A DNA stretch of 64,000 nt from Dictyostelium discoideum (Eukaryota). This document shows positions 16,764-30,073 of the stretch, in pieces. The notes below the pieces were generated by a model. That model was not told the origin of the DNA. It ran no database searches and saw only the letters and a program-made list of their open reading frames with translations. Position 1 is the first letter of the stretch, and each line of letters opens with the position of its first letter. The stretch covers positions 3,584,001-3,648,000 of the forward strand of contig CM000153.2 of NCBI GenBank assembly GCA_000004695.1, read 5' to 3'. The position numbers were made by a program, and so were the translations under genes.

Positions 16764-18200
16764 TTATTGGCAATAGTATTTAAGTAAAGGTTTATCAAGT
16801 GGTAAAAATTTATAGTCATGGGCTGTCATTAAAAGTTTAAGACTTTCTGGTGCCATATCATGTGTAAATGGATTGATTGTTTCACCTATTACGATATGGT
16901 TGATTGAATTTGGAAAAAGATCTTTGGATAATGGAAATTTATAAACAAGAAGTTCAAAAAACTCTAGTTCACTTGGGATTGATTCTTTAGTAAGTTTTTG
17001 GTCAATATCCTCTATTTTTAAATGACTCAATGATTCAGGATATTTAAATTTTGGATCCAGTTTCACTTTTATTAGAGATAATGAAAATATTGATTTTGGT
17101 AATTGATCATTTCCAATAACTTGAGAAACATTGCAAAGTACCAATTTATGAATACCATCAGTTGGGAAAAAGCTTGAATCAAATGGAAAATCTAAATTTT
17201 TTAAAGTTAACTCTCTGATTGAGCAATTTGATTTTGGCAAGGAAGTTTTATTAAAAATATGAGATTTGATACCATTAACAGTTAAACATCTAACATTACA
17301 AAATATATCTGGAGTAAGTTTATGGTTATAACCTCTTTCAAAATATAAATGTTGAACACTGATAGATGGCATTATATCTTTAGTAACAGCAAAATCTACC
17401 TGGCCAAAAACCATTTCCCGCACTTGTAAACCATATGAAAAGGGTGAAATTTTATGAGAGTATCCATTAAAAAACCTAACCTTTTCACCAAAGAAAATAT
17501 CTGGTACTGGATGGACAATATTACCAATTCCAACCGATCTTTCATAGTTATCAATCATCCAAGCATTCAATTTATGTTTGTACCCCCATCCAATATTTAC
17601 ACGATAATCTGTTGGTAAATCTTTAAATAGTTCTTTTGTAATTGGTTTGGAAATGTTTAGAATATTTATATCATGCTTTAGAGTACAAAATCCAAGTGGT
17701 GGAAACAATTTACTAATAACATTGAATTTGTAACCCTCACAAAAATAAATGCCTTTTGGGGAAATTGGTGGGTAAATTTTAAAAGGAGGTCTTAAACTAT
17801 TTTCATCCAAGGTGAATTTTGTTTTTATTATTAACAAAGAATCCAAATTGTCTATTATACTTTCATTTGTAATTTGATGAGAATAATTACCATCAAACAA
17901 TAAAGTTTTTATTGTGCCTTTTTCTAATAATTCTTTATTCAAAGGATAACCCATATCACCACCAACACCCAATTGATAAACGAAAGGTTGAACTATTTCC
18001 TTTGTAACTTGATTTTTATAGCCATTGAAACCCATAAATTTAATAGTATTTGGTATACTTTCACTGGTTAGTGCATAGGTAATATTAAAAAATATAGCAC
18101 CAATAACTGAACTTGGAATCATTTCTTTTTTAATATAATGTGCATAACCATCCAAAAAATAAATAAATTTAACATTTTTGTGAAAATTTATTTCATTCAA
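16764..18200 (-). CDS. hypothetical protein, 478 aa, with repeated F-x-G-Y-x-H-K / P-x-S-I motifs reminiscent of Dictyostelium FNIP repeats
   Basis: Track ORF. About 20-25-aa repeats with recurring FNGYSHKI, FDGNYSHQI and ERGYNHKL. The frame stays open about 90 nt upstream of the first ATG without another ATG, so an upstream exon is possible. Confidence 0.4.
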   Translation of the reverse strand: MNEINFHKNVKFIYFLDGYAHYIKKEMIPSSVIGAIFFNITYALTSESIPNTIKFMGFNGYKNQVTKEIVQPFVYQLGVGGDMGYPLNKELLEKGTIKTLLFDGNYSHQITNESIIDNLDSLLIIKTKFTLDENSLRPPFKIYPPISPKGIYFCEGYKFNVISKLFPPLGFCTLKHDINILNISKPITKELFKDLPTDYRVNIGWGYKHKLNAWMIDNYERSVGIGNIVHPVPDIFFGEKVRFFNGYSHKISPFSYGLQVREMVFGQVDFAVTKDIMPSISVQHLYFERGYNHKLTPDIFCNVRCLTVNGIKSHIFNKTSLPKSNCSIRELTLKNLDFPFDSSFFPTDGIHKLVLCNVSQVIGNDQLPKSIFSLSLIKVKLDPKFKYPESLSHLKIEDIDQKLTKESIPSELEFFELLVYKFPLSKDLFPNSINHIVIGETINPFTHDMAPESLKLLMTAHDYKFLPLDKPLLKYYCQ

Positions 18201-18865
18201 ATTTGGACTTTCACTTGATAATGCAACTCTTTCAAATGATTGTGGAACAACACCACCTTTTGTTAAATAAATAAAATCATCTTTTTCTATTAATTTTTAA
18301 AAAAATTAATATTATTAATATTTAAATCAATTTTTTTCCAAAAAATAAAAATTTAAAAACAAATCAATACAAACCTAAAAACAATTTTTCAGGAATAAAA
18401 AAATTATTATTAATCAAACTCATTTTTGAAATTATTATTCAAATAAAATGGATTTAAATTAAAAAATTAATAACAAATAATATTTAATAAAAATTAATAA
18501 TAATAATAATAATAATAATAAAAATAATAATAAAAATAATAAAAAAAAAATAAAAAAAAAAAAAAAAATTAAATAATTATAAATCAAAATTTAATAATAT
18601 AATTATTAATGGGCAATATAGATGATCATATACTAAATGGTGAGCAATTTATGATGATAATGAATAACAGTTTCCCAATGAGTAAAAATTTTAACGAGAT
18701 TTGGGGTGGATAATTTTTGTGATGTGGGCCAATAATTAATCAAATAATTTCTCATAAAATTATTAAAAATTATTCCAAATTTATTTAATAAATTTTTACC
18801 ACACCACTTTTGTATTTTTTTTTTTGTTGAATAGAAAAAAAAAAAAAAACAAATTAATAATACTT

Positions 18866-19001
18866 TTTTTTTTTTTTATGTATCGAAATATATAAATACC
18901 AAAAAAAAAAACAGTCACCACATGTGTAATTTTTTTTTTTTTTTTTTTTTTTATGTATCGAAATATATAAATACCAAAATAAAAAAACAGTCACCACATG
19001 T
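18866..19001. repeat. direct duplication of an about 48-nt element (T-run + tatgtatcgaaatatataaataccaaaa[a/t]aaaaaaacagtcaccacatgt), period about 74 nt
   Basis: Two near-identical copies read directly from the sequence (18866-18926 and 18930-19001), in the divergent intergenic region between the gene at 16764..18200 and the gene at 19409..20797. Confidence 0.75.
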
Positions 19002-19408
19002 TGTTGTTGGGCAATTATTTTATTGATATTCAAATATTGAATTAAAAATTTATTATTGCAAATAGTTTTTTTCATCTTGATAACAGATTTGGAAACTACA
19101 AACACTCGAGTTCTTTTTTCAAATTGGGGAGAAAAGAGTAAAAAAATAAAAATAAAAAAAAAATAAAAATTAAATTAAATTTGGTGAAAGTTGTTTGTAC
19201 AATCGATTGTATATTGAGATGTAAAAGCACATTTGAATAAAAAAAAAAAATAAAAAAAATAAATAAAATTAATTATTTTAATTGTTTTTATTATATGCTT
19301 CTTATATTTTTTTTTGAGTATAAAAGAGTTTTCTTTTTTTTTATTTTTTTTTTATTTTATTTTTATTTATAGAATCAATAATAATAATAAATAAGTAAAA
19401 ATAAAAAA

Positions 19409-20797
19409 ATGAAATTAATAAATCTTGTAATTTATTTTTTTCTTTTTGGAATAGTATATTCTCAACCACCACAACCACACTATGGTGTATTTGAATTATC
19501 AGCATTACGTGGTGGAGAAAATAAACTTCTGTATAGGGGTGCCAATCTAAAAGCTTTTTCTCAAACACCAGCTAGACCAGGAGTGATTGTTACTTTTTTC
19601 AGATACAATGGAGGTATTGACATTTACTATTCCCATAGGATACAAATTGTTGCAAATCTTGAAGAGTCAGCGCGTGTAATGACCCAAACTCCAAATAATA
19701 TGGCTACTAGTGGTAGAATTGTTTCATATGCTTATCAAGAGATATCTACCCAGGTTTTCAATGGACTAAATGTTGGCAATTTGAATGCTCTAATCAATGG
19801 ACCCAATTTAGTAACACCAGCTGGGCCATTTATTCCACATGGAAGGTTGATTAATGTCCTTGCACTTTTGGCGAGATGGATTAGATTAAATTTTTCAACA
19901 AATATACAAATCATTGAATTCATTGATGATCATCCAAGTTTTCCAAAACCTTCTGAAAGCTATGATAGCAATGGTGGTGGCTCTGGAGTTTCCAATGATT
20001 TAGAACTTGCTTTTTACCAAAAGAATCCAAATGGTAACTATTATCTTGAGGAAAGAAAACATATTAATGAAGAATCTGACAATCCTGCAGGATTATTGGG
20101 ATTAGTTAGTGAAGGTATTAAAGAGGCTGCCAACGGTGTTAAAGTCACTGGTGTAAATATTTGGAATAAAGCCAAAAGTATTTTCAGCCATGGTAAAGAA
20201 GCTGCCAGTAGTAAAACAAGTGCTGCCGTTGTAAAAGTTGAAAATGAAGGTAAAGCAGTTGTCAAAGCTGGTGAATCCGTTGTAAGTACTGTGAAAAATG
20301 ATGGTAAGGCAGTTGTCAATGCTGGCGAATCTGTTGTAACCTCTGTGAAAAATGAAGGTAAGGCAGTTGTCAATGCTGGTGAATCCGTTGTAACCTCTGT
20401 AAAAAATAATGGTAAGGCAGTTGTCAATGCTGGTGAATCCGTTGTAACCTCTGTGAAAAATGAAGGTAAGGCAGTTGTCAATGCTGGTGGATCTGTTGTA
20501 ACCTCTGTAAAAAATAATGGTAAGGCAGTTGTCAATGCTGGTGAAACTGTTGTTCAAACTGTGAAAAAAGAAGCCTCAGTCATTGTGAAAACTGGTGAAA
20601 CTGTTATTGATTCCACAAGAAAAGGAGGCGCTGCATTTGTTTCTGAAGGTGGTGCTGCAATTGCTGATATTGAAAAAAATGGTGCACAATTTGCAAGAGG
20701 TGTTGTAGAAATGGGTGAAGCAGCTGGTGATGTTGTTGAAGAAATGGCTGAAGTCTCAGCTGGTAGGTTAATAGTTGAAGTTCTTGAAATTGTATAA
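19409..20797 (+). CDS. secreted protein, 462 aa: signal peptide, an unknown N-terminal domain of about 200 aa, then seven 18-aa tandem repeats (KAVVNAGESVVTSVKNEG) and an acidic tail
   Basis: Track ORF with a genuine ATG. The hydrophobic N-terminus MKLINLVIYFFLFGIVYSQ looks like a signal peptide. The 54-nt DNA repeats are nearly identical. Confidence 0.65.
   Translation: MKLINLVIYFFLFGIVYSQPPQPHYGVFELSALRGGENKLLYRGANLKAFSQTPARPGVIVTFFRYNGGIDIYYSHRIQIVANLEESARVMTQTPNNMATSGRIVSYAYQEISTQVFNGLNVGNLNALINGPNLVTPAGPFIPHGRLINVLALLARWIRLNFSTNIQIIEFIDDHPSFPKPSESYDSNGGGSGVSNDLELAFYQKNPNGNYYLEERKHINEESDNPAGLLGLVSEGIKEAANGVKVTGVNIWNKAKSIFSHGKEAASSKTSAAVVKVENEGKAVVKAGESVVSTVKNDGKAVVNAGESVVTSVKNEGKAVVNAGESVVTSVKNNGKAVVNAGESVVTSVKNEGKAVVNAGGSVVTSVKNNGKAVVNAGETVVQTVKKEASVIVKTGETVIDSTRKGGAAFVSEGGAAIADIEKNGAQFARGVVEMGEAAGDVVEEMAEVSAGRLIVEVLEIV
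20252..20565 (+). repeat. tandem 54-nt coding repeats (about 6 units, several more than 95% identical) within the secreted-protein gene
   Basis: The unit ggtaaggcagttgtcaatgctggtgaatccgttgtaacctctgtgaaaaatgaa is repeated head to tail. The antisense track ORFs 20041..20557 are artefacts of this repeat. Confidence 0.85.
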
Positions 20798-21126
20798 ATT
20801 TTTATTTATAAAAAAAAAAAAAAAAAAAAAAAAAAGTGTAAATAATAAAACTATATAAAAATTAAAAACCATTTTTTATAATTATAGTTTGATTTAATTA
20901 AATCAACTTGGTGGTTTAAGTATATTATAAAAATAGAAAAATTAAAATTATTTTTTTTTTTTTCCAAATCTTTTCATTTTCATTTTTTTTTTTTTTCATT
21001 TTTTTTTTTTTTTTTTTTTTTTTCAATTTTTATTTTATAATTAATTTCACCCACCAAACACTTCAACATATAATTATATATATATATAATATTTATTTAT
21101 AATTGTATATATATATAATAATAATA

Positions 21127-22231
21127 ATGATTAAATCAAGTGATCCATTAATTCCACCATTTAGATTTGCAATAGTTGAAGAAGGGTTATTAAGGGGATC
21201 ATATCCAACAGATAGAAATTTTCGATTTTTAAAGAGACTAAAGTTAAAGACGATTGTATCATTAACACCAAAGCCACCAACTAAATCATTTTATACATTT
21301 TGTGAAAGATATAATACCACCACGAAACATTTTACAGTTAGCAAATTTAAAGATGATGTGACATTATCAGCAGCACAAGTAGCACAATTATTGGAAATGA
21401 TGATCGAACCTAACAATTTACCAATGTATATTCATTGTTTAGATGGTGCAAATGTAACAGGTACAATATTTATGTGTTTAAGAAAACTTCAAAACTGGAA
21501 TCTTTCATCAATATTTCAAGAATTCACAAGATTCACTAGAGGTGGTACAATCGCATCTTCGGAGGCTGAATTTGTTGAAACTTTCAAGGCTGAAATCGAT
21601 GTTTGTCCACATATTCCACCTTGGTTATGGCAAGGTATTAGAATGGTTAAACATCCAACTTTAAAATTAAGATTAGTAGGTGGTGATCAACAACCTGCAC
21701 TTTTAGCTTTAAATAATAATTCCTCCTCTTCAACAACAAATCCCAATGCAACATCTACTATAACTAATCCTTCATCAATAAGTACATCATCTTTGCCAAG
21801 TTCTTCAACGAATACCCCAAATAGATCAACTGTTGATGATACTGGTAATTTATTACAAAAACTAATAGAATTAAATTTAAATAATCAAAATAGTAATGAA
21901 AGTGGTATGCAGCTTGAAAATAACGATGATAATAATAATAGTGATAATAATAATTATAATAATAATAGTAATAATAATAATAGTAATAATAATAATAGTA
22001 ATAATAATAGTGATACAATCGATTATAAAAATTTAAATAAACCATTAAAAATTAGTTCAGAAGAAAGCGAAAAAGAAAAGAATACAAATGAGTCATTCTC
22101 TTCAACAATATATACGGTATCATCAACTACAATAATTAATAATAACGATAATAATAAAAATATTGATAATAATGATGGTAATAATAGTAATGATAATGAT
22201 AATGATAATAGTAATAATAATAATAATAATG

Positions 22232-22324
<93 letters not shown>

Positions 22325-22965
22325 GTATCAATAATAATGATAGCAACGAACCAAATGATAATAATAATAATAATAACAATAATAATAATAACGATAATAA
22401 TAACGATAATAATAGTAACACAACACCTTTAATTTCATCAATAACCTCAACAAGTATTTTGAACGTCTCATCTACAACTGTACAACCAATATCACAACCA
22501 CAACCAATATCACAACCACCACAAACACAACCAATATCACAACCACAACCACAACCCCAACCCCAACCACAACAATCAAGTACGCCAAATATATCAAGTA
22601 TTTTAACACAAAGTCCAAAAGTAACATCATCACCTTTAAATTCAAGTATTATATTACCAAGTGGCAGTGGTAGTGGTGGTAGTAGTAGTAGTGGAAGTAG
22701 TATTAGTAAAGATAAAAAGAAAAAAGATGATATTAAACTTCAATTTGATTCTGGTAAATTTTTAACACAAAAGGAATCTAGATCCATTGAAGCCTTATCA
22801 CTTGAAAGAACTGTAAAAAATGTAACACCATCCAACTCCAATACTTCCACAACAACAACAACTACCACTACAACAACTACTACTTTTACTTCACAATCAC
22901 AAAATCAATCACCAAAAAATTCACACAGAGCAATCTCTTCATCACAAAATCCAAATTTAAATTAA
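21127..22965 (+). CDS. Tyr_phosphatase_2 (Oca/Siw14, plant-and-fungi atypical DSP) family protein, probably catalytically inactive, with a long polyN/S/T/PQ low-complexity C-terminal half, about 612 aa
   Basis: FAIVEEGLLRGSYPTDRNFRFLKRLKLKTIVSL and IHCLDGANVTGTIFMCLRKLQNWNLSSIFQEFTRF match the family consensus (IHCKRGKHRTG...LRKLQ.W.L.SIF.EY.RF). The CX5R arginine is replaced, giving C-LDGANV-T-G. The start is taken at ATG 21127, in frame with track ORF 21103. Confidence 0.6.
22234..22323 (+). repeat. (AAT)n coding microsatellite (polyN) within the phosphatase-like gene
   Basis: 30 consecutive aat units. Track ORFs 22023..22421 (minus) and 22163..22432 (plus) are artefacts of the repeat. Confidence 0.9.
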
Positions 22966-27178: not shown

Positions 27179-27728
27179 TAGCAATTGTTTTAGAATGTTA
27201 TAATGAAAATAGTGCAAGAACATTTTATATGGAATTATATAGAAGACCATTAGATACTAGTGATGTTGTTTGTTGGAAATCATTGATTACAATTCATAAG
27301 GTTGTACAAGAGGGACCAAAGAATGTATTAAGTGATACAATTAGTAGAGTTGGATGGTTTGAGAATTTGAGAGATCATTGGGCACGTTTTGATAATAGAG
27401 GATTTGGTAGATTGGTAGCAGACTATTGTACATTAATCATTGATAAAATACGTTTTCATCAAGCACATCCAGAATTTGATGGTGGATTATCCTTGGAGAA
27501 CTATAGCAAGAATCATAGACCCGAGTCAATTGAAGTTGACAAAGGTTTACAAACTGTAAATCGTTTAATGGATTTAACTGATGCTGTCTTTAGAATGCAT
27601 AATTCAATCGTATCAGCAACACCTTATAATGATTGTAAAACTTCTGCTTTCATTCCATTAGTTTTAGAATCTTATGCTATCTATATTTTAGTTGTACATT
27701 TTTTAACAAATTTAATTGATAGTAATGT

Positions 27729-27770
<42 letters not shown>

Positions 27771-30073
27771 ATGGTTATTAATATTTAAAATTTTAAATTT
27801 TAACAGAGGTTGATAATAAAGAAGTTATGGATTTTTCAATTAAAAGATTTTATGGTCAATATCAAACATTGAGAAACTTTTTTTTAAATGCAAGTGCAAT
27901 TACAAGTGTATCTAGTGTTATTGCAGTACCAAATTTACCACCAGATCCTCCAAAGTTTATTAGAAAAGTTAGAGAGGCACCAAAGGCCAAACCACAGGCA
28001 ATTCCACCACCAGTTGTAAAGGAACCACCAACACCACCACCTGAACAAATTCCAGTTCCAGTACCAACACCTGTATTCATTCGTCAAACGGTACCAGTGG
28101 TTTATGGCGCACCTTATGGTATGCAACAACAACAACAAGATAATAGTATGTGGGGTCAGTTTGGTTCCAATCAACCATTTGATCCAAATTTACAATTACA
28201 ACAACAACAAGCTGCATTATTACAACAACAACAGCTACAACAACAACAACTTTTACAACAACAACAGCTACAGCAACAGCTACAACAACAACAATTATTA
28301 CAACAACAACAAGCTGCTGCTTTGGCTGCCGCTCAGCAACAACAGCAACAACAGCAATCACCACCTCAAATTTCACCTCAATCATCAGCTCAATGGGTAA
28401 CATTTGGTGATGATGCACCAACAAGACAACGTTCAACTAGTACACCACCAGCTTTGGAAAAGAAAGAAGCATCAGTTGATAAACCAGCTTCACCACCAAA
28501 ATCAACAACAGCCAGTTCCAATACTGATAGTCAAGGAAAAACTAGAGTTATCACTAAAATCATTACAAAGACTGTCAACAATACACAAGAGATCAATGCT
28601 CTCAAAGCAAGAATTGAGGAATTGGAAAGATTACTTCAAGAGGAACAAGATAAAAATAAAGCACTCACATTGAAATTATCGGAACGTGAAGCTATGATTC
28701 AAGAGGTAACATCAGCAAGAAAGAGATTACAAGATATGAGTTCAACCAATGATAATTACACTGCCGAAGTGGTTAAACAAAATGAACAATTACGTGAACA
28801 ACTCATTGCCATCAGAGATTGGACTGAACGTACAAGACTTCAAAGATTAGAGAAAGAGTTTGGTTTGGCTGCTGGTTCAATTCAACAATATCTCTCACAA
28901 TTGGATAATCCAAACAATATGGGTAATCAAGAGGCAACTCATCAATTGGTTATCGAGGATTTGGTTAATCATTTACAACAAGCTCAACGTTTATCCGATC
29001 TTTGTAATCAAGAGGGTGATGATTTAGAAATGGATATTTTCTCTGCGGTCAATACAGTTTCAAACTCTTTGAAGAGTTTATTCTTTGATGCCAAGGGTTC
29101 ATCAAGATTAATTTTAGATCCAGAGTCACAAAGTAAATTTATGGATGCCGCAAGAAAAATTGGTGCTCTCACTCAAAATCTTTTCGAATCAATTCGACTC
29201 CAAGGTGGTCAATGTAATGATGATGAAGATCGTAAGAGATTGGCAAACAATTTTGCTTCCCTTAAAACTGGTATCAATAATTTGGATGCATTGGCTCAAC
29301 AAGCTGACGCTGAAAGAATTGAAGCCGAGAAGAAATATTTAGAGAATGGTTTTGATTTGGATGATGTTGCTGAACGTGAACTATTGGCTGCCGCTAAAAC
29401 CATTGAAGATGCTGCAAACTCATTATTGGCCGCAAAATCAAAGAGAGCTCCAAAGAAGGAGGGTGATTCACCAGATGTTGCTGAGGCAATCCTTGAGGCT
29501 GCTATGGCAATCACTGGTGCTACTTCCACATTGGTTGGTGCCGCCACTTTAGCACAAAGAGAACGTGTCGAAAAGGGTAGAACAAGTGATGGTGGTCCAC
29601 TCTATAGAAAGGATCCAACTTGGGCTGAAGGTTTAATCTCTGCTGCAAAATCTGTTGCCCAAGCCACTAAAGCTTTGGTAGATAATGCCAACAAGACAGC
29701 ATCTGGTCAAGAGATCCCAGGTGGTACAGAAGAAGCTCTCATTGCAACTTCGATGGCTGTAACTGCTGCAACTTCTCAATTGGTCTCTGCTTGTAAATCT
29801 AAATCTGATATCAATAGTCCTTCTCAACATAAACTTTCAAATGCTGCCAAATCCGTATCCAATGCAACCAATCTTTTAGTGGCTGCAGCCAAAGCTGTCG
29901 CTGCTAAAGTCGCCTCTGAAGAGGATATCGATTTCGATAAACTCACTGTCACTGGTTATAAAGTTAAAGAAATGGAACAACAAATGGCAATTCTCAGATT
30001 AGAAAAAGAATTAGAAGTCGCTAGAAAAGGTTTAAGTGTTATTAGAAAGAAACAATATGACGAAAATCAATAA
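26989..30073 (+). CDS. hipA: huntingtin-interacting protein 1-related / Sla2 homologue (ANTH domain, coiled coil, C-terminal I/LWEQ talin-like actin-binding module), about 961 aa; exons 26989..27064, 27182..27726, 27809..30073
   Basis: The ANTH-like N-terminus MTEFEAIVHKATNSKITAPKRKHV..IVLECYNENSARTFYMELYRRPLDTSDVVCWKSLITIHKVVQEGP parallels Sla2/HIP1R ([24 protein letters not shown]..). The I/LWEQ-type C-terminus includes KVKEMEQQMAILRLEKELEVARKGLSVIRKKQY. Donors are T|GTAAAT and AAT|GTATTT; acceptors are aaaaatag and acagag. 76+545+2265 = 2886 nt = 962 codons. There is a Q-rich tract at 28130-28370. Confidence 0.8.

What the first reader, a model, noticed from the sequence alone, without database searches (positions are those of the whole stretch)
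19409..20797. Secreted protein with almost identical 54-nt tandem repeats encoding amphipathic 18-mers
After a signal peptide and a non-repetitive domain of about 200 aa, the protein contains 7 consecutive 18-aa units (G-K-A-V-V-N-A-G-E-S-V-V-T-S-V-K-N-E). Several units are more than 95% identical at the DNA level. This implies very recent expansion or concerted evolution. The periodicity and composition (K/E at fixed positions with small hydrophobics) suggest an amphipathic helical repeat of the kind seen in LEA-, apolipoprotein- or perilipin-like proteins, or a coat/matrix protein. A 48-nt element is also duplicated in the upstream intergenic region (18866..19001).
Basis: seen in the sequence. 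Interest (0 to 1): 0.55.

Follow-up and report, generated by a model that had tools for sequence, protein, structure and literature searches.

The report
Secreted amoeba protein with 18-residue repeats

Summary
ORF 19409..20797 (+) is D. discoideum AX4 gene DDB_G0285697, annotated as a hypothetical protein of 462 aa in one exon. It encodes a signal peptide, a roughly 200-aa domain with no detectable relatives, and a proline-free, cysteine-free C-terminal half built from 18-residue units. Six units are near-identical (80-96% DNA identity) and degenerate units flank them.

Seven orthologues exist, all in close Dictyostelium relatives. Array length runs from 65 to 158 aa, and different unit variants were expanded and homogenised in different lineages, which indicates concerted evolution. 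The upstream duplication of about 62 nt is also real.

A published study found this to be the most strongly Mef2A-dependent gene at 16 h of development (451-fold).

The fold is unresolved:
- The conserved hydrophobic positions cannot all be buried in such a rung, yet they fall in one 120-degree helical stripe. The amphipathic strength equals that of alpha-synuclein and perilipins.

I favour a self-associating solenoid rod (about 0.4) over a surface-induced amphipathic helix (about 0.33). No known family's membership test is met.

The parts
18802..19003 (+). Upstream region holding three copies of a CA-rich motif, CACCAC(A/T)T(G/T)T, at 18802, 18916 and 18992. It lies about 400-600 nt before the ATG.
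   Evidence: The motif copies are conserved in the four genomes of the D. discoideum complex (alignment A3). The longer pattern occurs nowhere else in the 64-kb window. Any link to the CA-rich elements of prespore promoters comes from memory and was not tested.
18864..18925 (+). Copy 1 of the tandemly duplicated intergenic element of about 62 nt. In this near-identical form it is seen only in AX4.
   Evidence: families D2 and D8. In alignment A3 the other strains lack the ATGTATCGAAATATATAAATACC part at this position.
18939..19001 (+). Copy 2 of the duplicated element. This is the ancestral copy: AAATAAATACCAAAATAAAAA..ACAGTCACCACATGT is conserved in four genomes.
19066..19139 (+). Conserved non-coding block TTTTTTTCATCTTGATAACAGATTTGGAAACTACAAACACTCGAGTTC...GGGGAGAAAAGAGT, a candidate regulatory element that contains a TGATAA motif.
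   Evidence: Alignment A3: nearly invariant in the four D. discoideum-complex genomes and largely kept in D. citrinum, within otherwise AT-rich DNA that aligns poorly.
19183..19239 (+). Second conserved promoter block (GGTGAAAGTTGTTTGTACAATCGATTG...GAGATGTAAAAGCACATTTGAATA).
   Evidence: Alignment A3.
19319..19326 (+). TATA box TATAAAAG, 83-90 nt before the ATG and followed by an oligo-T stretch.
   Evidence: Sequence. GAGTATAAAAGAG is conserved in all six aligned loci. The combination of TATA box and T-run as the usual Dictyostelium core promoter is general knowledge.
19363..19372 (+). Mef2-like site TTATTTATAG. It differs from CTA(A/T)4TAG only in the first C.
   Evidence: PMC3640940 marks this gene as having a 'Mef2-related' promoter sequence. 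This is weak evidence, because the degenerate pattern occurs 146 times in the window.
19409..20797 (+). Complete coding sequence of DDB_G0285697 (462 codons plus stop), single exon.
19409..19462 (+). Signal peptide, aa 1-18 (MKLINLVIYFFLFGIVYS, then QPP).
   Evidence: This is the most hydrophobic 19-residue window of the protein, with a Kyte-Doolittle mean of 1.52. No other window exceeds 1.05, so there is no second membrane segment and no GPI-type tail. The V-x-S (or A-x-S) motif at -3/-1 is conserved in 7 orthologues. This is rule-based; SignalP was not available.
19463..20053 (+). N-terminal domain with no detectable relatives, about aa 19-215. It includes the invariant stretch PSESYDS-GGGSG-SNDL..YQKNPNG-YY and one N-x-S sequon at N161.
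   Evidence: Mean column identity is 80% among 6 orthologues. A profile search of 1.84 billion representative proteins found no relative outside the clade. There was no Pfam, NCBIfam or PDB sequence match. AF2 pLDDT is about 25, so no fold is known.
20087..20248 (+). Transition region, aa 227-280. It holds degenerate units and a predicted short amphipathic helix (NIWNKAKSIFS), and ends in the anchor AAVVKVENE.
   Evidence: helix at fragment residues 24-34; first strands at fragment residues 46-51.
20249..20572 (+). Six near-identical 54-nt / 18-aa units (aa 281-388), consensus GKAVVNAGESVVTSVKNE.
20573..20680 (+). Two degenerate units of older type (aa 389-424): ASVIVKTGETVIDSTRKG and GAAFVSEGGAAIADIEKN. 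Both are conserved in all orthologues.
20681..20794 (+). Conserved acidic, Gly-rich C-terminal tail (aa 425-462; GAQFARG..EEMGEAAG..AGR.IV.VLE..). It is predicted as two helices at low confidence.

Best explanation
DDB_G0285697 is a genuine gene restricted to the D. discoideum clade. It is switched on during multicellular development under almost complete dependence on the MADS-box factor Mef2A.

The product enters the secretory pathway: the signal peptide is cut after Ser18, and there is no other membrane segment and no cysteine. It consists of a roughly 200-aa domain with no detectable relatives, followed by a proline-free array of 18-residue units. Each unit reads as two similar heptads plus four residues: [G-charged-small-V-V-polar-small] x2 + V-K-N-E.

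I think the array most likely stacks one unit per rung into a narrow beta-solenoid: strand KAVV, arc NAGE, strand SVVTSV, arc KNEG. That would give about 9 rungs, or roughly 4 nm, in AX4 and about half that in D. citrinum and D. firmibasis.

Five positions per unit are conserved as Val/Ile, and no strand register can bury them all. At least one ladder of valines (V-T-V or V/V) must therefore stay exposed along the rod. I infer that the rod is sticky. It would either self-associate or lie on an apolar surface, so the protein would serve as a building block of an extracellular matrix, coat or adhesion layer laid down by developing cells, probably of the prespore lineage.

The array gains and loses whole units by unequal recombination and is homogenised within each lineage.

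Shown: the gene, the repeats, their evolution, the Mef2A dependence, and the absence of relatives. Inferred: secretion, the fold, the exposed apolar stripe, and the matrix or coat role.
For: Gene and expression:
- establish the gene.
- PMC3640940 reports 2256 reads in wild type against 5 in the mef2A mutant at 16 h, a 451-fold difference and the largest in its table. It also reports qRT-PCR confirmation at all stages tested.

Secretion:
-.

Fold:
- AF2 on aa 227-462 with 6 orthologues gives pLDDT 78-93 over residues 50-200 and pTM 0.67, with alternating 4- and 6-residue strands in every unit, including the degenerate ones. The full-length run gives the same strand pattern.
- The native sequence hits only beta-helix adhesin repeats in the PDB (TibA 1e-7, Ag43 3e-5, AidA-I type 1.4e-3) and in NCBIfam (AIDA-I 3e-6, Ag43 1e-4). 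A reversed copy and two within-unit permutations never hit them.
- Gly8 is present in 34 of 35 distinct units and Gly1 in 28 of 35. Both follow an N/K-x motif, as expected for beta-arcs.
- The period-9 harmonic is strong (0.335), meaning two hydrophobic blocks per unit.
- There is no proline in 143-236 residues in any of the 7 orthologues, which argues for regular structure rather than a floppy linker.

Evolution:
-.
Against: [quoted passage not shown] Exposed hydrophobic residues and buried charges are the warning signs (PMC11795689).
- Only 2 of the 5 AF2 models were confident (68, 64, 48, 47, 44).
- Every strand register leaves 2-3 of the conserved Val/Ile positions (4, 5, 11, 12, 15) exposed. 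It also buries position 13 (31% charged across units) or position 14 (20% charged).
- The strongest harmonic of the hydrophobicity profile is 100 degrees, which is alpha-helical.
- Irregular units in orthologues are 11, 11 and 14 residues long. These lengths keep helical phase but would break a stack of 18-residue rungs.
- The adhesin hits carry heavy composition bias, need one gap per unit, and disappear for the non-expanded orthologues. One permuted control produced an unrelated hit of 4e-9, so E-values for such queries are unreliable.
- Foldseek E-values were all above 0.08.
- Cell type, localisation and function are not shown by any data I could reach.
Confidence: 0.4

Rival explanations
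1. Surface-induced amphipathic helix. The array would be unfolded in solution and fold into one long helix of about 150 residues (roughly 22 nm) on an apolar interface such as a membrane outer leaflet, lipid, the spore or sorus surface, or during drying. Since 18 residues make exactly 5 turns, the valine stripe would run straight along the helix. The protein would act as a coat, surfactant or desiccation protectant in the manner of perilipin-4, alpha-synuclein, apolipoproteins or LEA proteins.
For: - All five conserved big-hydrophobic positions (4, 5, 11, 12, 15), together with Gly1 and Gly8, occupy seven adjacent slots of the 18-slot helical wheel (280 to 40 degrees). Every position that tolerates charge lies outside that arc.
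- The 100-degree harmonic is the strongest in AX4 (0.43) and also in the non-expanded D. citrinum, D. firmibasis and D. dimigraforme arrays (0.34-0.40), where the beta signal is only 0.06-0.14.
- Permutation tests give p = 0.014-0.023.
- On the Heliquest scale muH is 0.32-0.34, within the range of proven long amphipathic helices. The composition is of the same kind as the Plin4 helix: 28% Val, 12% Gly, about 21% charged, no aromatic residues and no Pro. Plin4 is enriched in Thr/Gly/Val, nearly free of aromatics, and unfolded in solution (PMC5889406).
- Irregular unit lengths of 11, 11 and 14 residues shift the helical phase by 40 degrees or less.
- In D. dimigraforme the Val-to-Ala changes occur at positions 4 and 11, which are neighbours on the helix.
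Against: - AF2 did not choose a helix in the best-ranked model of either run.
- The unit is poor in helix formers, and its most conserved residue is a glycine in the middle of the apolar face.
- After correction for testing three periodicities, the permutation p is only 0.10. In an 18-periodic sequence, 100 degrees is simply the fifth harmonic.
- There is no match to the Perilipin, Synuclein, Apolipoprotein or LEA_4 models even at E<=10.
- The period is 18, not 11.
- The known Val/Thr/Gly-rich examples are cytosolic, whereas this protein has a signal peptide and no extracellular lipid partner is known.
Confidence: 0.33
2. The array has no defined structure. It would be a flexible, rapidly evolving spacer or low-complexity tail, its length would be selectively neutral, and all function would reside in the N-terminal domain.
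For: - Copy number and unit type vary freely between close lineages.
- No family membership was found.
- AF2 may be over-predicting structure here (PMC11795689).
Against: - No proline in any orthologue's C-terminal part, against 5-7% in the N-terminal part.
- Val makes up 28% of the repeat.
- The position-specific pattern is strict across 35 distinct units from 7 species, with G8 at 97% and positions 5 and 12 at 97% Val/Ile.
- The degenerate units and the C-terminal tail are conserved across the clade.
- Indels come as whole units or as 7-, 4- or 11-residue sub-units.
Confidence: 0.12
3. The repeat domain is a true homologue of the passenger repeats of bacterial self-associating autotransporters (AIDA-I, Ag43, TibA), acquired from bacteria eaten by the amoeba.
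For: - PDB and NCBIfam hits go only to this group.
Against: - Scores are 20-25 bits against curated cut-offs of 1200 bits.
- The period is 18 residues rather than 19, so every unit needs a gap.
- The hits vanish for D. citrinum and D. dimigraforme, whose units are closer to the ancestral form.
- There is no autotransporter barrel or any other bacterial domain.
- A profile search of 5.8 billion proteins returned only Dictyostelium orthologues.
- A permuted control shows that such E-values arise by chance.
Confidence: 0.03
4. The near-identical repeats are an assembly collapse or expansion artefact, or the ORF is not a real gene.
For: None found.
Against: - Independent assemblies of other strains and species have the same architecture, with their own variants.
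- The annotated protein is identical to the ORF.
- Transcripts were measured by RNA-seq and qRT-PCR (PMC3640940).
- The units differ by diagnostic substitutions, so reads can be placed.
Confidence: 0.01

Closest known systems
Passenger-domain repeats of self-associating autotransporter adhesins (TibA, Antigen 43, AIDA-I)
   Different: Their period is 19 residues with three strands per rung and alternating inward residues; here it is 18 with Val-Val doublets. Scores fall far below family cut-offs. There is no beta-barrel translocator. This protein is eukaryotic, with a signal peptide and an unrelated N-terminal domain. The similarity is absent in orthologues with older unit types, so convergence is the better reading.
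Weakly hydrophobic repetitive amphipathic helices built on 11-residue repeats: perilipin-4 (33-mers made of three 11-mers) and alpha-synuclein (11-mers)
   Same: All are long, highly repetitive, Pro-free, nearly free of aromatics and rich in Val/Gly/Thr(Ser)/Lys. The hydrophobic moment is comparable (0.32-0.34 here, against 0.257-0.35). The apolar face is made of small and beta-branched residues. In Plin4, length determines binding strength, which gives a rationale for copy-number change here.
   Different: Their period is 11/33 residues (the 3-11 helix); here it is 18 (7+7+4, giving 3.6 residues per turn). They are cytosolic and lipid-droplet or vesicle associated, whereas this protein has a signal peptide. 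No sequence or profile similarity was detected. AF2 predicts strands here.
Two-sheet beta-solenoid ice-binding proteins and functional amyloids (Lolium perenne IBP, Marinomonas MpAFP, curli CsgA)
   Different: No sequence relationship was found. No Ca-binding motif was identified (not specifically searched for), and no Gln/Asn ladder motifs like those of curli. Neither ice binding nor amyloid formation has been tested.
Dictyostelium spore-coat and prespore-vesicle proteins (CotA-E, PsB)
   Same: Both are secreted, developmentally induced and repeat-containing. Other prespore genes also fall in the mef2A mutant (PMC3640940).
   Different: From memory, Cot proteins are Cys-rich with EGF/follistatin-like modules and mucin repeats. 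This protein has no cysteine at all and gives no Pfam hit.

Membership tests
Self-associating autotransporter adhesins (AIDA-I / Ag43 / TibA) | Score above the curated family threshold (NCBIfam auto_AIDA-I and auto_Ag43, cut-off 1200 bits) | tested here: not met
   24.8 and 20.2 bits, and only for the AX4 protein. There is no hit for the D. citrinum or D. dimigraforme orthologues.
Self-associating autotransporter adhesins (AIDA-I / Ag43 / TibA) | 19-residue imperfect repeat | tested here: not met
   The period is exactly 18 aa / 54 nt. The alignments to TibA need one gap per unit.
Self-associating autotransporter adhesins (AIDA-I / Ag43 / TibA) | C-terminal beta-barrel translocator domain | tested here: not met
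   No Pfam domain at E<=1. The protein ends 38 aa after the array.
Self-associating autotransporter adhesins (AIDA-I / Ag43 / TibA) | Right-handed beta-helix fold | tested here: inconclusive
Amphipathic-helix repeat proteins built on 11-residue repeats (perilipins, synucleins, exchangeable apolipoproteins, LEA_4) | Match to the family profile (Pfam Perilipin, Synuclein, Apolipoprotein, LEA_4) | tested here: not met
   None of these appears even at E<=10, for the AX4 protein or for the C-terminal regions of six orthologues. A PDB sequence search at E<=10 returned no synuclein or apolipoprotein.
Amphipathic-helix repeat proteins built on 11-residue repeats (perilipins, synucleins, exchangeable apolipoproteins, LEA_4) | 11-residue (3-11 helix) periodicity | tested here: not met
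   The period is 18. The moment at 98.2 degrees collapses over the long array (0.12-0.20), while at 100 degrees it stays at 0.32-0.34. Two orthologues do have one 11-residue unit.
Amphipathic-helix repeat proteins built on 11-residue repeats (perilipins, synucleins, exchangeable apolipoproteins, LEA_4) | Segregation of apolar and polar residues on a helical wheel, with a moment in the range of known members | tested here: met
   compared with Table 1 of PMC5889406.
Amphipathic-helix repeat proteins built on 11-residue repeats (perilipins, synucleins, exchangeable apolipoproteins, LEA_4) | Coil-to-helix transition on lipid or on drying | not testable with these tools
   Needs circular dichroism or NMR of the purified array.
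Left-handed beta-helix (hexapeptide-repeat) proteins, 18 residues per rung | Six-residue periodicity [LIV]-G-x-x-[STAV]-x | tested here: not met
   The period-6 harmonic of the hydrophobicity profile is among the weakest (0.042). There is no Hexapep Pfam hit.
Beta-solenoid ice-binding proteins | Flat, regular Thr/Ser/Val ladder on one solvent-exposed sheet, and ice-binding activity | not testable with these tools
Dictyostelium spore-coat (Cot) proteins | Cys-rich EGF/follistatin-like repeats | tested here: not met
   The AX4 protein has no cysteine, and the seven orthologues have at most one between them. No Pfam domain was found.
Secretory proteins with a cleavable signal peptide | Charged n-region, hydrophobic core of 7-15 residues, and small residues at -3/-1 | tested here: met
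   K2, then L3-Y17, then V16-Y-S18 before Q19. The pattern is conserved in 7 orthologues. This rests on rules only, with no SignalP run and no experiment.

The most novel reading that the evidence does not exclude
The protein is an extracellular amphipathic coat former, which would be a kind not described in social amoebae. On this reading it is a functional analogue of fungal hydrophobins, Streptomyces chaplins or perilipin-4. Its continuous valine stripe would assemble at the surface of spores or of the spore droplet. Alternatively, as a flat Ser/Thr/Val solenoid face, it would bind ice. Its length would be tuned by rapid gain and loss of units. If it is helical, it would also be the first natural long amphipathic helix built on an 18-residue, 5-turn repeat instead of 11-residue repeats.
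Probability: 0.12. Interest if true: 0.7.

Novelty: new variant of a known kind. Interest (0 to 1): 0.35.

Why it matters
The gene is the single strongest read-out of Mef2A activity reported in Dictyostelium development, yet nothing is known about its product.

If the array is a self-associating or surface-binding rod, the protein becomes a candidate structural component of the fruiting body. It arose recently, within one subclade of group 4, and is evolving by whole-unit changes. That makes it a compact case for two questions: how new extracellular matrix proteins originate, and how repeat number maps to function.

It is also a good natural test case for the known weakness of AlphaFold2 on near-perfect repeats. 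The same 18-residue unit satisfies a helical amphipathic pattern and is predicted as a solenoid, and the orthologues with diverged units allow the two to be separated experimentally.

None of this overturns existing ideas, so the overall interest is modest.

Tried and rejected
- Family assignment failed. Pfam on the whole protein and on six C-terminal regions gave nothing. NCBIfam gave only sub-threshold adhesin hits. The PDB sequence search with the N-domain profile gave only chance-level hits to LDL-receptor EGF modules at E>=0.035, and the domain has no cysteines.
- Distant relatives were not found. An exhaustive profile search of 1.84 billion representatives with the N-domain found nothing outside the clade. 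The one extra hit, P0007, is a repeated cadherin-like motif matching the linker. A profile search with the C-terminal region found only one more orthologue, from D. dimigraforme.
- The N-domain fold could not be predicted. AF2 pLDDT was about 25 with six close orthologues.
- The afdb50 fold library was unavailable.
- Foldseek gave no significant E-values, although all of its hits were solenoids.
- The hexapeptide left-handed beta-helix is rejected because there is no period-6 signal.
- Processing into peptides at dibasic sites is rejected. KK[DE] ends the older units, but the expanded D. discoideum units have KN[END].
- A GPI anchor or second transmembrane segment is rejected.
- Spore-coat family membership is rejected because there are no cysteines.
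- The Mef2 site search is uninformative in this AT-rich DNA, with 146 matches per 64 kb.
- I searched for cell-type or proteome data in the supplements of PMC6198379, PMC2864575, PMC12821622 and PMC3640940. The gene identifier was not found or the files were not held.
Full report
**Source and gene.** The window is AT-rich, with 13-30% G+C in most 2-kb bins. ORF 19409..20797 (+) encodes 462 aa. It is identical over its full length to 'hypothetical protein DDB_G0285697 [Dictyostelium discoideum AX4]' on a 5.45-Mb contig. The finding therefore concerns an annotated but uncharacterised single-exon gene of the social amoeba.

**The repeats are real.**
- Tandem Repeats Finder reports a 54-nt period at 20241..20553 with 5.8 copies, 90% matches and score 500.
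- The repeat finder places seven in-register copies exactly 54 nt apart between 20187 and 20672.
- In protein register there are six units beginning GKAVV (aa 281-388). Two degenerate units follow (ASVIVKTGETVIDSTRKG and GAAFVSEGGAAIADIEKN), and at least one precedes them.
- Core units are 80-96% identical in DNA. Two pairs reach 96%, and KNE- and KNN-ending units alternate, which points to a recent duplication of a two-unit block.
- The two long antisense ORFs across the array are a by-product of the repeat.

**The upstream duplication is also real.** There are two copies of about 62 nt, at 18864-18925 and 18939-19001, that are 96-98% identical. Comparison with five orthologous loci shows that the second copy is the conserved one and that the near-identical first copy is seen only in AX4.

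**Orthologues and evolution.**
- Only seven proteins in 5.8 billion are related. Four come from genomes of the D. discoideum complex, and one each from D. citrinum, D. firmibasis and D. dimigraforme.
- Gene order is conserved: an FNIP-repeat gene lies upstream on the other strand and a tyrosine-phosphatase-like gene lies downstream.
- Measured between the anchor VKVExE and the tail GxQFARG, the array is 144, 144, 144 and 158 aa in the D. discoideum complex, 72 aa in D. citrinum, 65 aa in D. firmibasis and 119 aa in D. dimigraforme. These lengths are multiples of 18, plus one 14- or 11-residue unit in three of the seven arrays.
- Different unit variants were amplified in different lineages: GKAVVNAGESVVTSVKNE in AX4 and a second D. 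discoideum strain, GKAVVNAGQSVVTSVKND in a third genome, ASIVVKTGETAVDTVKKE in a fourth, and GTAAINAGKSAVTSVKNE in D. dimigraforme.
- In the third genome all six units share CAA at codon 9 and the synonymous AAA at codon 2. Each inner unit there is closer to a neighbour in its own array (91-96%) than to any AX4 unit (87-93%). This is concerted evolution at the DNA level.
- Because independent assemblies agree, an assembly artefact is ruled out.

**Expression.** One paper names the gene. In Galardi-Castilla et al. 2013 (PMC3640940) it had 2256 reads in wild type and 5 in the mef2A mutant at 16 h, a 451-fold difference and the largest in the table. The paper states that qRT-PCR confirmed near-total Mef2A dependence at all stages. 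The authors listed it as a putative membrane protein with a Mef2-related promoter sequence. I find a Mef2-like TTATTTATAG at 19363, but the pattern is too common in this DNA to mean much. The promoter also has:
- a conserved TATA box at 19319;
- two conserved blocks, at 19066-19139 and 19183-19239;
- three CACCAC(A/T)T(G/T)T motifs.

**Protein anatomy.**
- *Signal peptide.* Residues 1-18 look like a classical cleavable signal peptide. The V/A-x-S motif before the cleavage site is kept in all seven orthologues; one orthologue's gene model simply starts 14 codons too late.
- *Membrane segments and cysteines.* There is no second hydrophobic segment, no GPI-like tail, no cysteine, and only one N-glycosylation sequon.
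- *N-terminal domain.* Residues 19-215 form a well-conserved domain with no relatives. A profile search of 1.84 billion representative proteins found nothing outside the clade. Pfam, NCBIfam and PDB sequence searches found nothing credible. AlphaFold2 gave pLDDT of about 25.
- *C-terminal half.* It contains no proline in any orthologue, against 5-7% in the N-terminal part.

**What the unit looks like.** I compared 35 distinct units from seven species.
- Positions 4, 5, 11, 12 and 15 are Val/Ile-type (63-97%).
- Gly8 is present in 97% of units and Gly1 in 80%.
- Position 16 is always charged, and positions 18, 9, 17, 6, 2, 13 and 14 are often charged.
- The unit reads as two similar heptads plus four residues: G-K-A-V-V-N-A, then G-E-S-V-V-T-S, then V-K-N-E.

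**Evidence for a beta-solenoid.**
- AlphaFold2 on aa 227-462 gives pLDDT 78-93 across the array and pTM 0.67, with a 4-residue and a 6-residue strand in every unit. The full-length run shows the same pattern.
- The native sequence hits only TibA, Ag43 and AidA-I-type adhesins in the PDB, down to E = 1e-7, and AIDA-I and Ag43 in NCBIfam. A reversed copy and two within-unit permutations never hit these proteins.
- From standard residue propensities (my own knowledge, not a tool run), the N/K-x-G motifs look like turns and SVVTSV looks like a strand.

**Evidence against the solenoid and for an amphipathic helix.**
- Pratt et al. 2025 (PMC11795689) showed that AlphaFold2 gives confident but unrealistic solenoids for 41% of random perfect repeats, with exposed hydrophobic residues and buried charges as tell-tale signs. 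Only two of five models here were confident.
- In any strand register, 2-3 of the five conserved Val/Ile positions point outward. Position 13 (31% charged) or position 14 (20% charged) points inward.
- On a helical wheel, the five hydrophobic positions and the two glycines fill seven adjacent slots, and all charge-tolerant positions lie outside that arc.
- The 100-degree harmonic is the strongest in AX4 and in the non-expanded orthologues.
- The Heliquest-scale moment is 0.32-0.34 over 108-150 residues. Published values are 0.30 for alpha-synuclein, 0.35 for Plin3, 0.257 for Plin4 and 0.39 for ApoA-I (PMC5889406).
- Plin4's helix is likewise Val/Gly/Thr-rich, nearly free of aromatics, and unfolded until it meets a lipid surface.
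- Irregular units of 11, 11 and 14 residues keep helical phase within 40 degrees.
- The statistics are modest. The permutation p is 0.014-0.023 for the 100-degree term alone and 0.10 after allowing for three periodicities. The adhesin E-values are also unreliable, because one permuted control gave 4e-9 to an unrelated repetitive protein.

**Verdict on mechanism.** Both readings give an elongated rod with a continuous valine stripe flanked by Lys/Glu, and its length changes in whole units. I put a beta-solenoid-like stack that self-associates or adheres through its exposed valine ladder at about 0.4. I put a surface-induced amphipathic helix at about 0.33, an unstructured spacer at about 0.12, and true homology to bacterial autotransporters at about 0.03. 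Secretion, cell type and function are inferred, not shown.

**Comparison with known families.** No membership test is met:
- For autotransporter adhesins, the scores are 20-25 bits against cut-offs of 1200, the period is 18 rather than 19, there is no barrel, and the hits are lost in orthologues with older unit types.
- For the amphipathic-helix families built on 11-residue repeats, there is no profile match, the period is different, and this protein has a signal peptide.
- Hexapeptide beta-helices are excluded by the lack of period-6 signal.
- Spore-coat proteins are excluded by the absence of cysteines.

The protein works like one of these classes but belongs to none. I file it as a new variant of a known kind, namely secreted tandem-repeat rod proteins. 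Interest is modest: the repeat observation and its evolution are solid, the Mef2A link gives it a biological handle, and the alpha-versus-beta ambiguity is a neat test case. A specialist would not be greatly surprised by any of it.

Noticed in passing
window 20303..20538 and 20747..20768: The forward qRT-PCR primer used for this gene in PMC3640940 (GGTAAGGCAGTTGTCAATGC) matches five repeat units perfectly and a sixth with 2 mismatches. With the single reverse site it should therefore give a ladder of amplicons 54 nt apart. The reverse primer differs from the AX4 sequence at its 5' base.
   Followed up: yes
L004 2959..3000 (orthologous locus of a D. cf. discoideum genome): The deposited gene model for P0004 starts at an internal Met. 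The in-frame upstream ATG restores a normal signal peptide, MKLIYLIIYFFLFGMVHS.
   Followed up: yes
L004 4075..4116 (aa 359-372 of P0004): One unit in the middle of this orthologue's array is 14 residues long instead of 18 (ASIIVKTGETVKKE). The 12-nt deletion lies between two ACTG direct repeats. D. firmibasis and D. dimigraforme each have an 11-residue first unit.
   Followed up: partly
window 20041..20557, minus strand: Two long antisense ORFs (164 and 151 aa) run through the repeat array. They exist because the repeated unit lacks stop codons in those frames, and they are not independent genes.
   Followed up: partly
window 19066..19139 and 19183..19239: Two intergenic blocks are almost invariant across the D. 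discoideum complex and recognisable in D. citrinum, in a region that otherwise aligns poorly. The first contains TGATAA. They are candidate regulatory elements of the Mef2A-dependent promoter.
   Followed up: partly
window 16764..18200 (-) and 21103..22965 (+): The neighbours are an FNIP-repeat-like protein, transcribed divergently, and a Y_phosphatase2-type protein with very long Asn and Thr runs. The Pfam assignments come from the orthologous genes at the related loci, not from the window ORFs themselves. This gene order is conserved in all five orthologous loci fetched.
   Followed up: partly
window 27229..30073 (+): The only G+C-rich stretch of the window (0.395 in 28001-30000) coincides with two adjacent ORFs of 180 and 748 aa. 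They look like two exons of one gene, with a Gln-rich middle and an Ala-rich C-terminal domain. I did not identify it.
   Followed up: no
(control search): A within-unit permutation of the repeat region gave a PDB hit of 4.4e-9 to an unrelated repetitive protein (9e5c_0q). This shows how unreliable phmmer E-values are for repetitive queries.
   Followed up: yes
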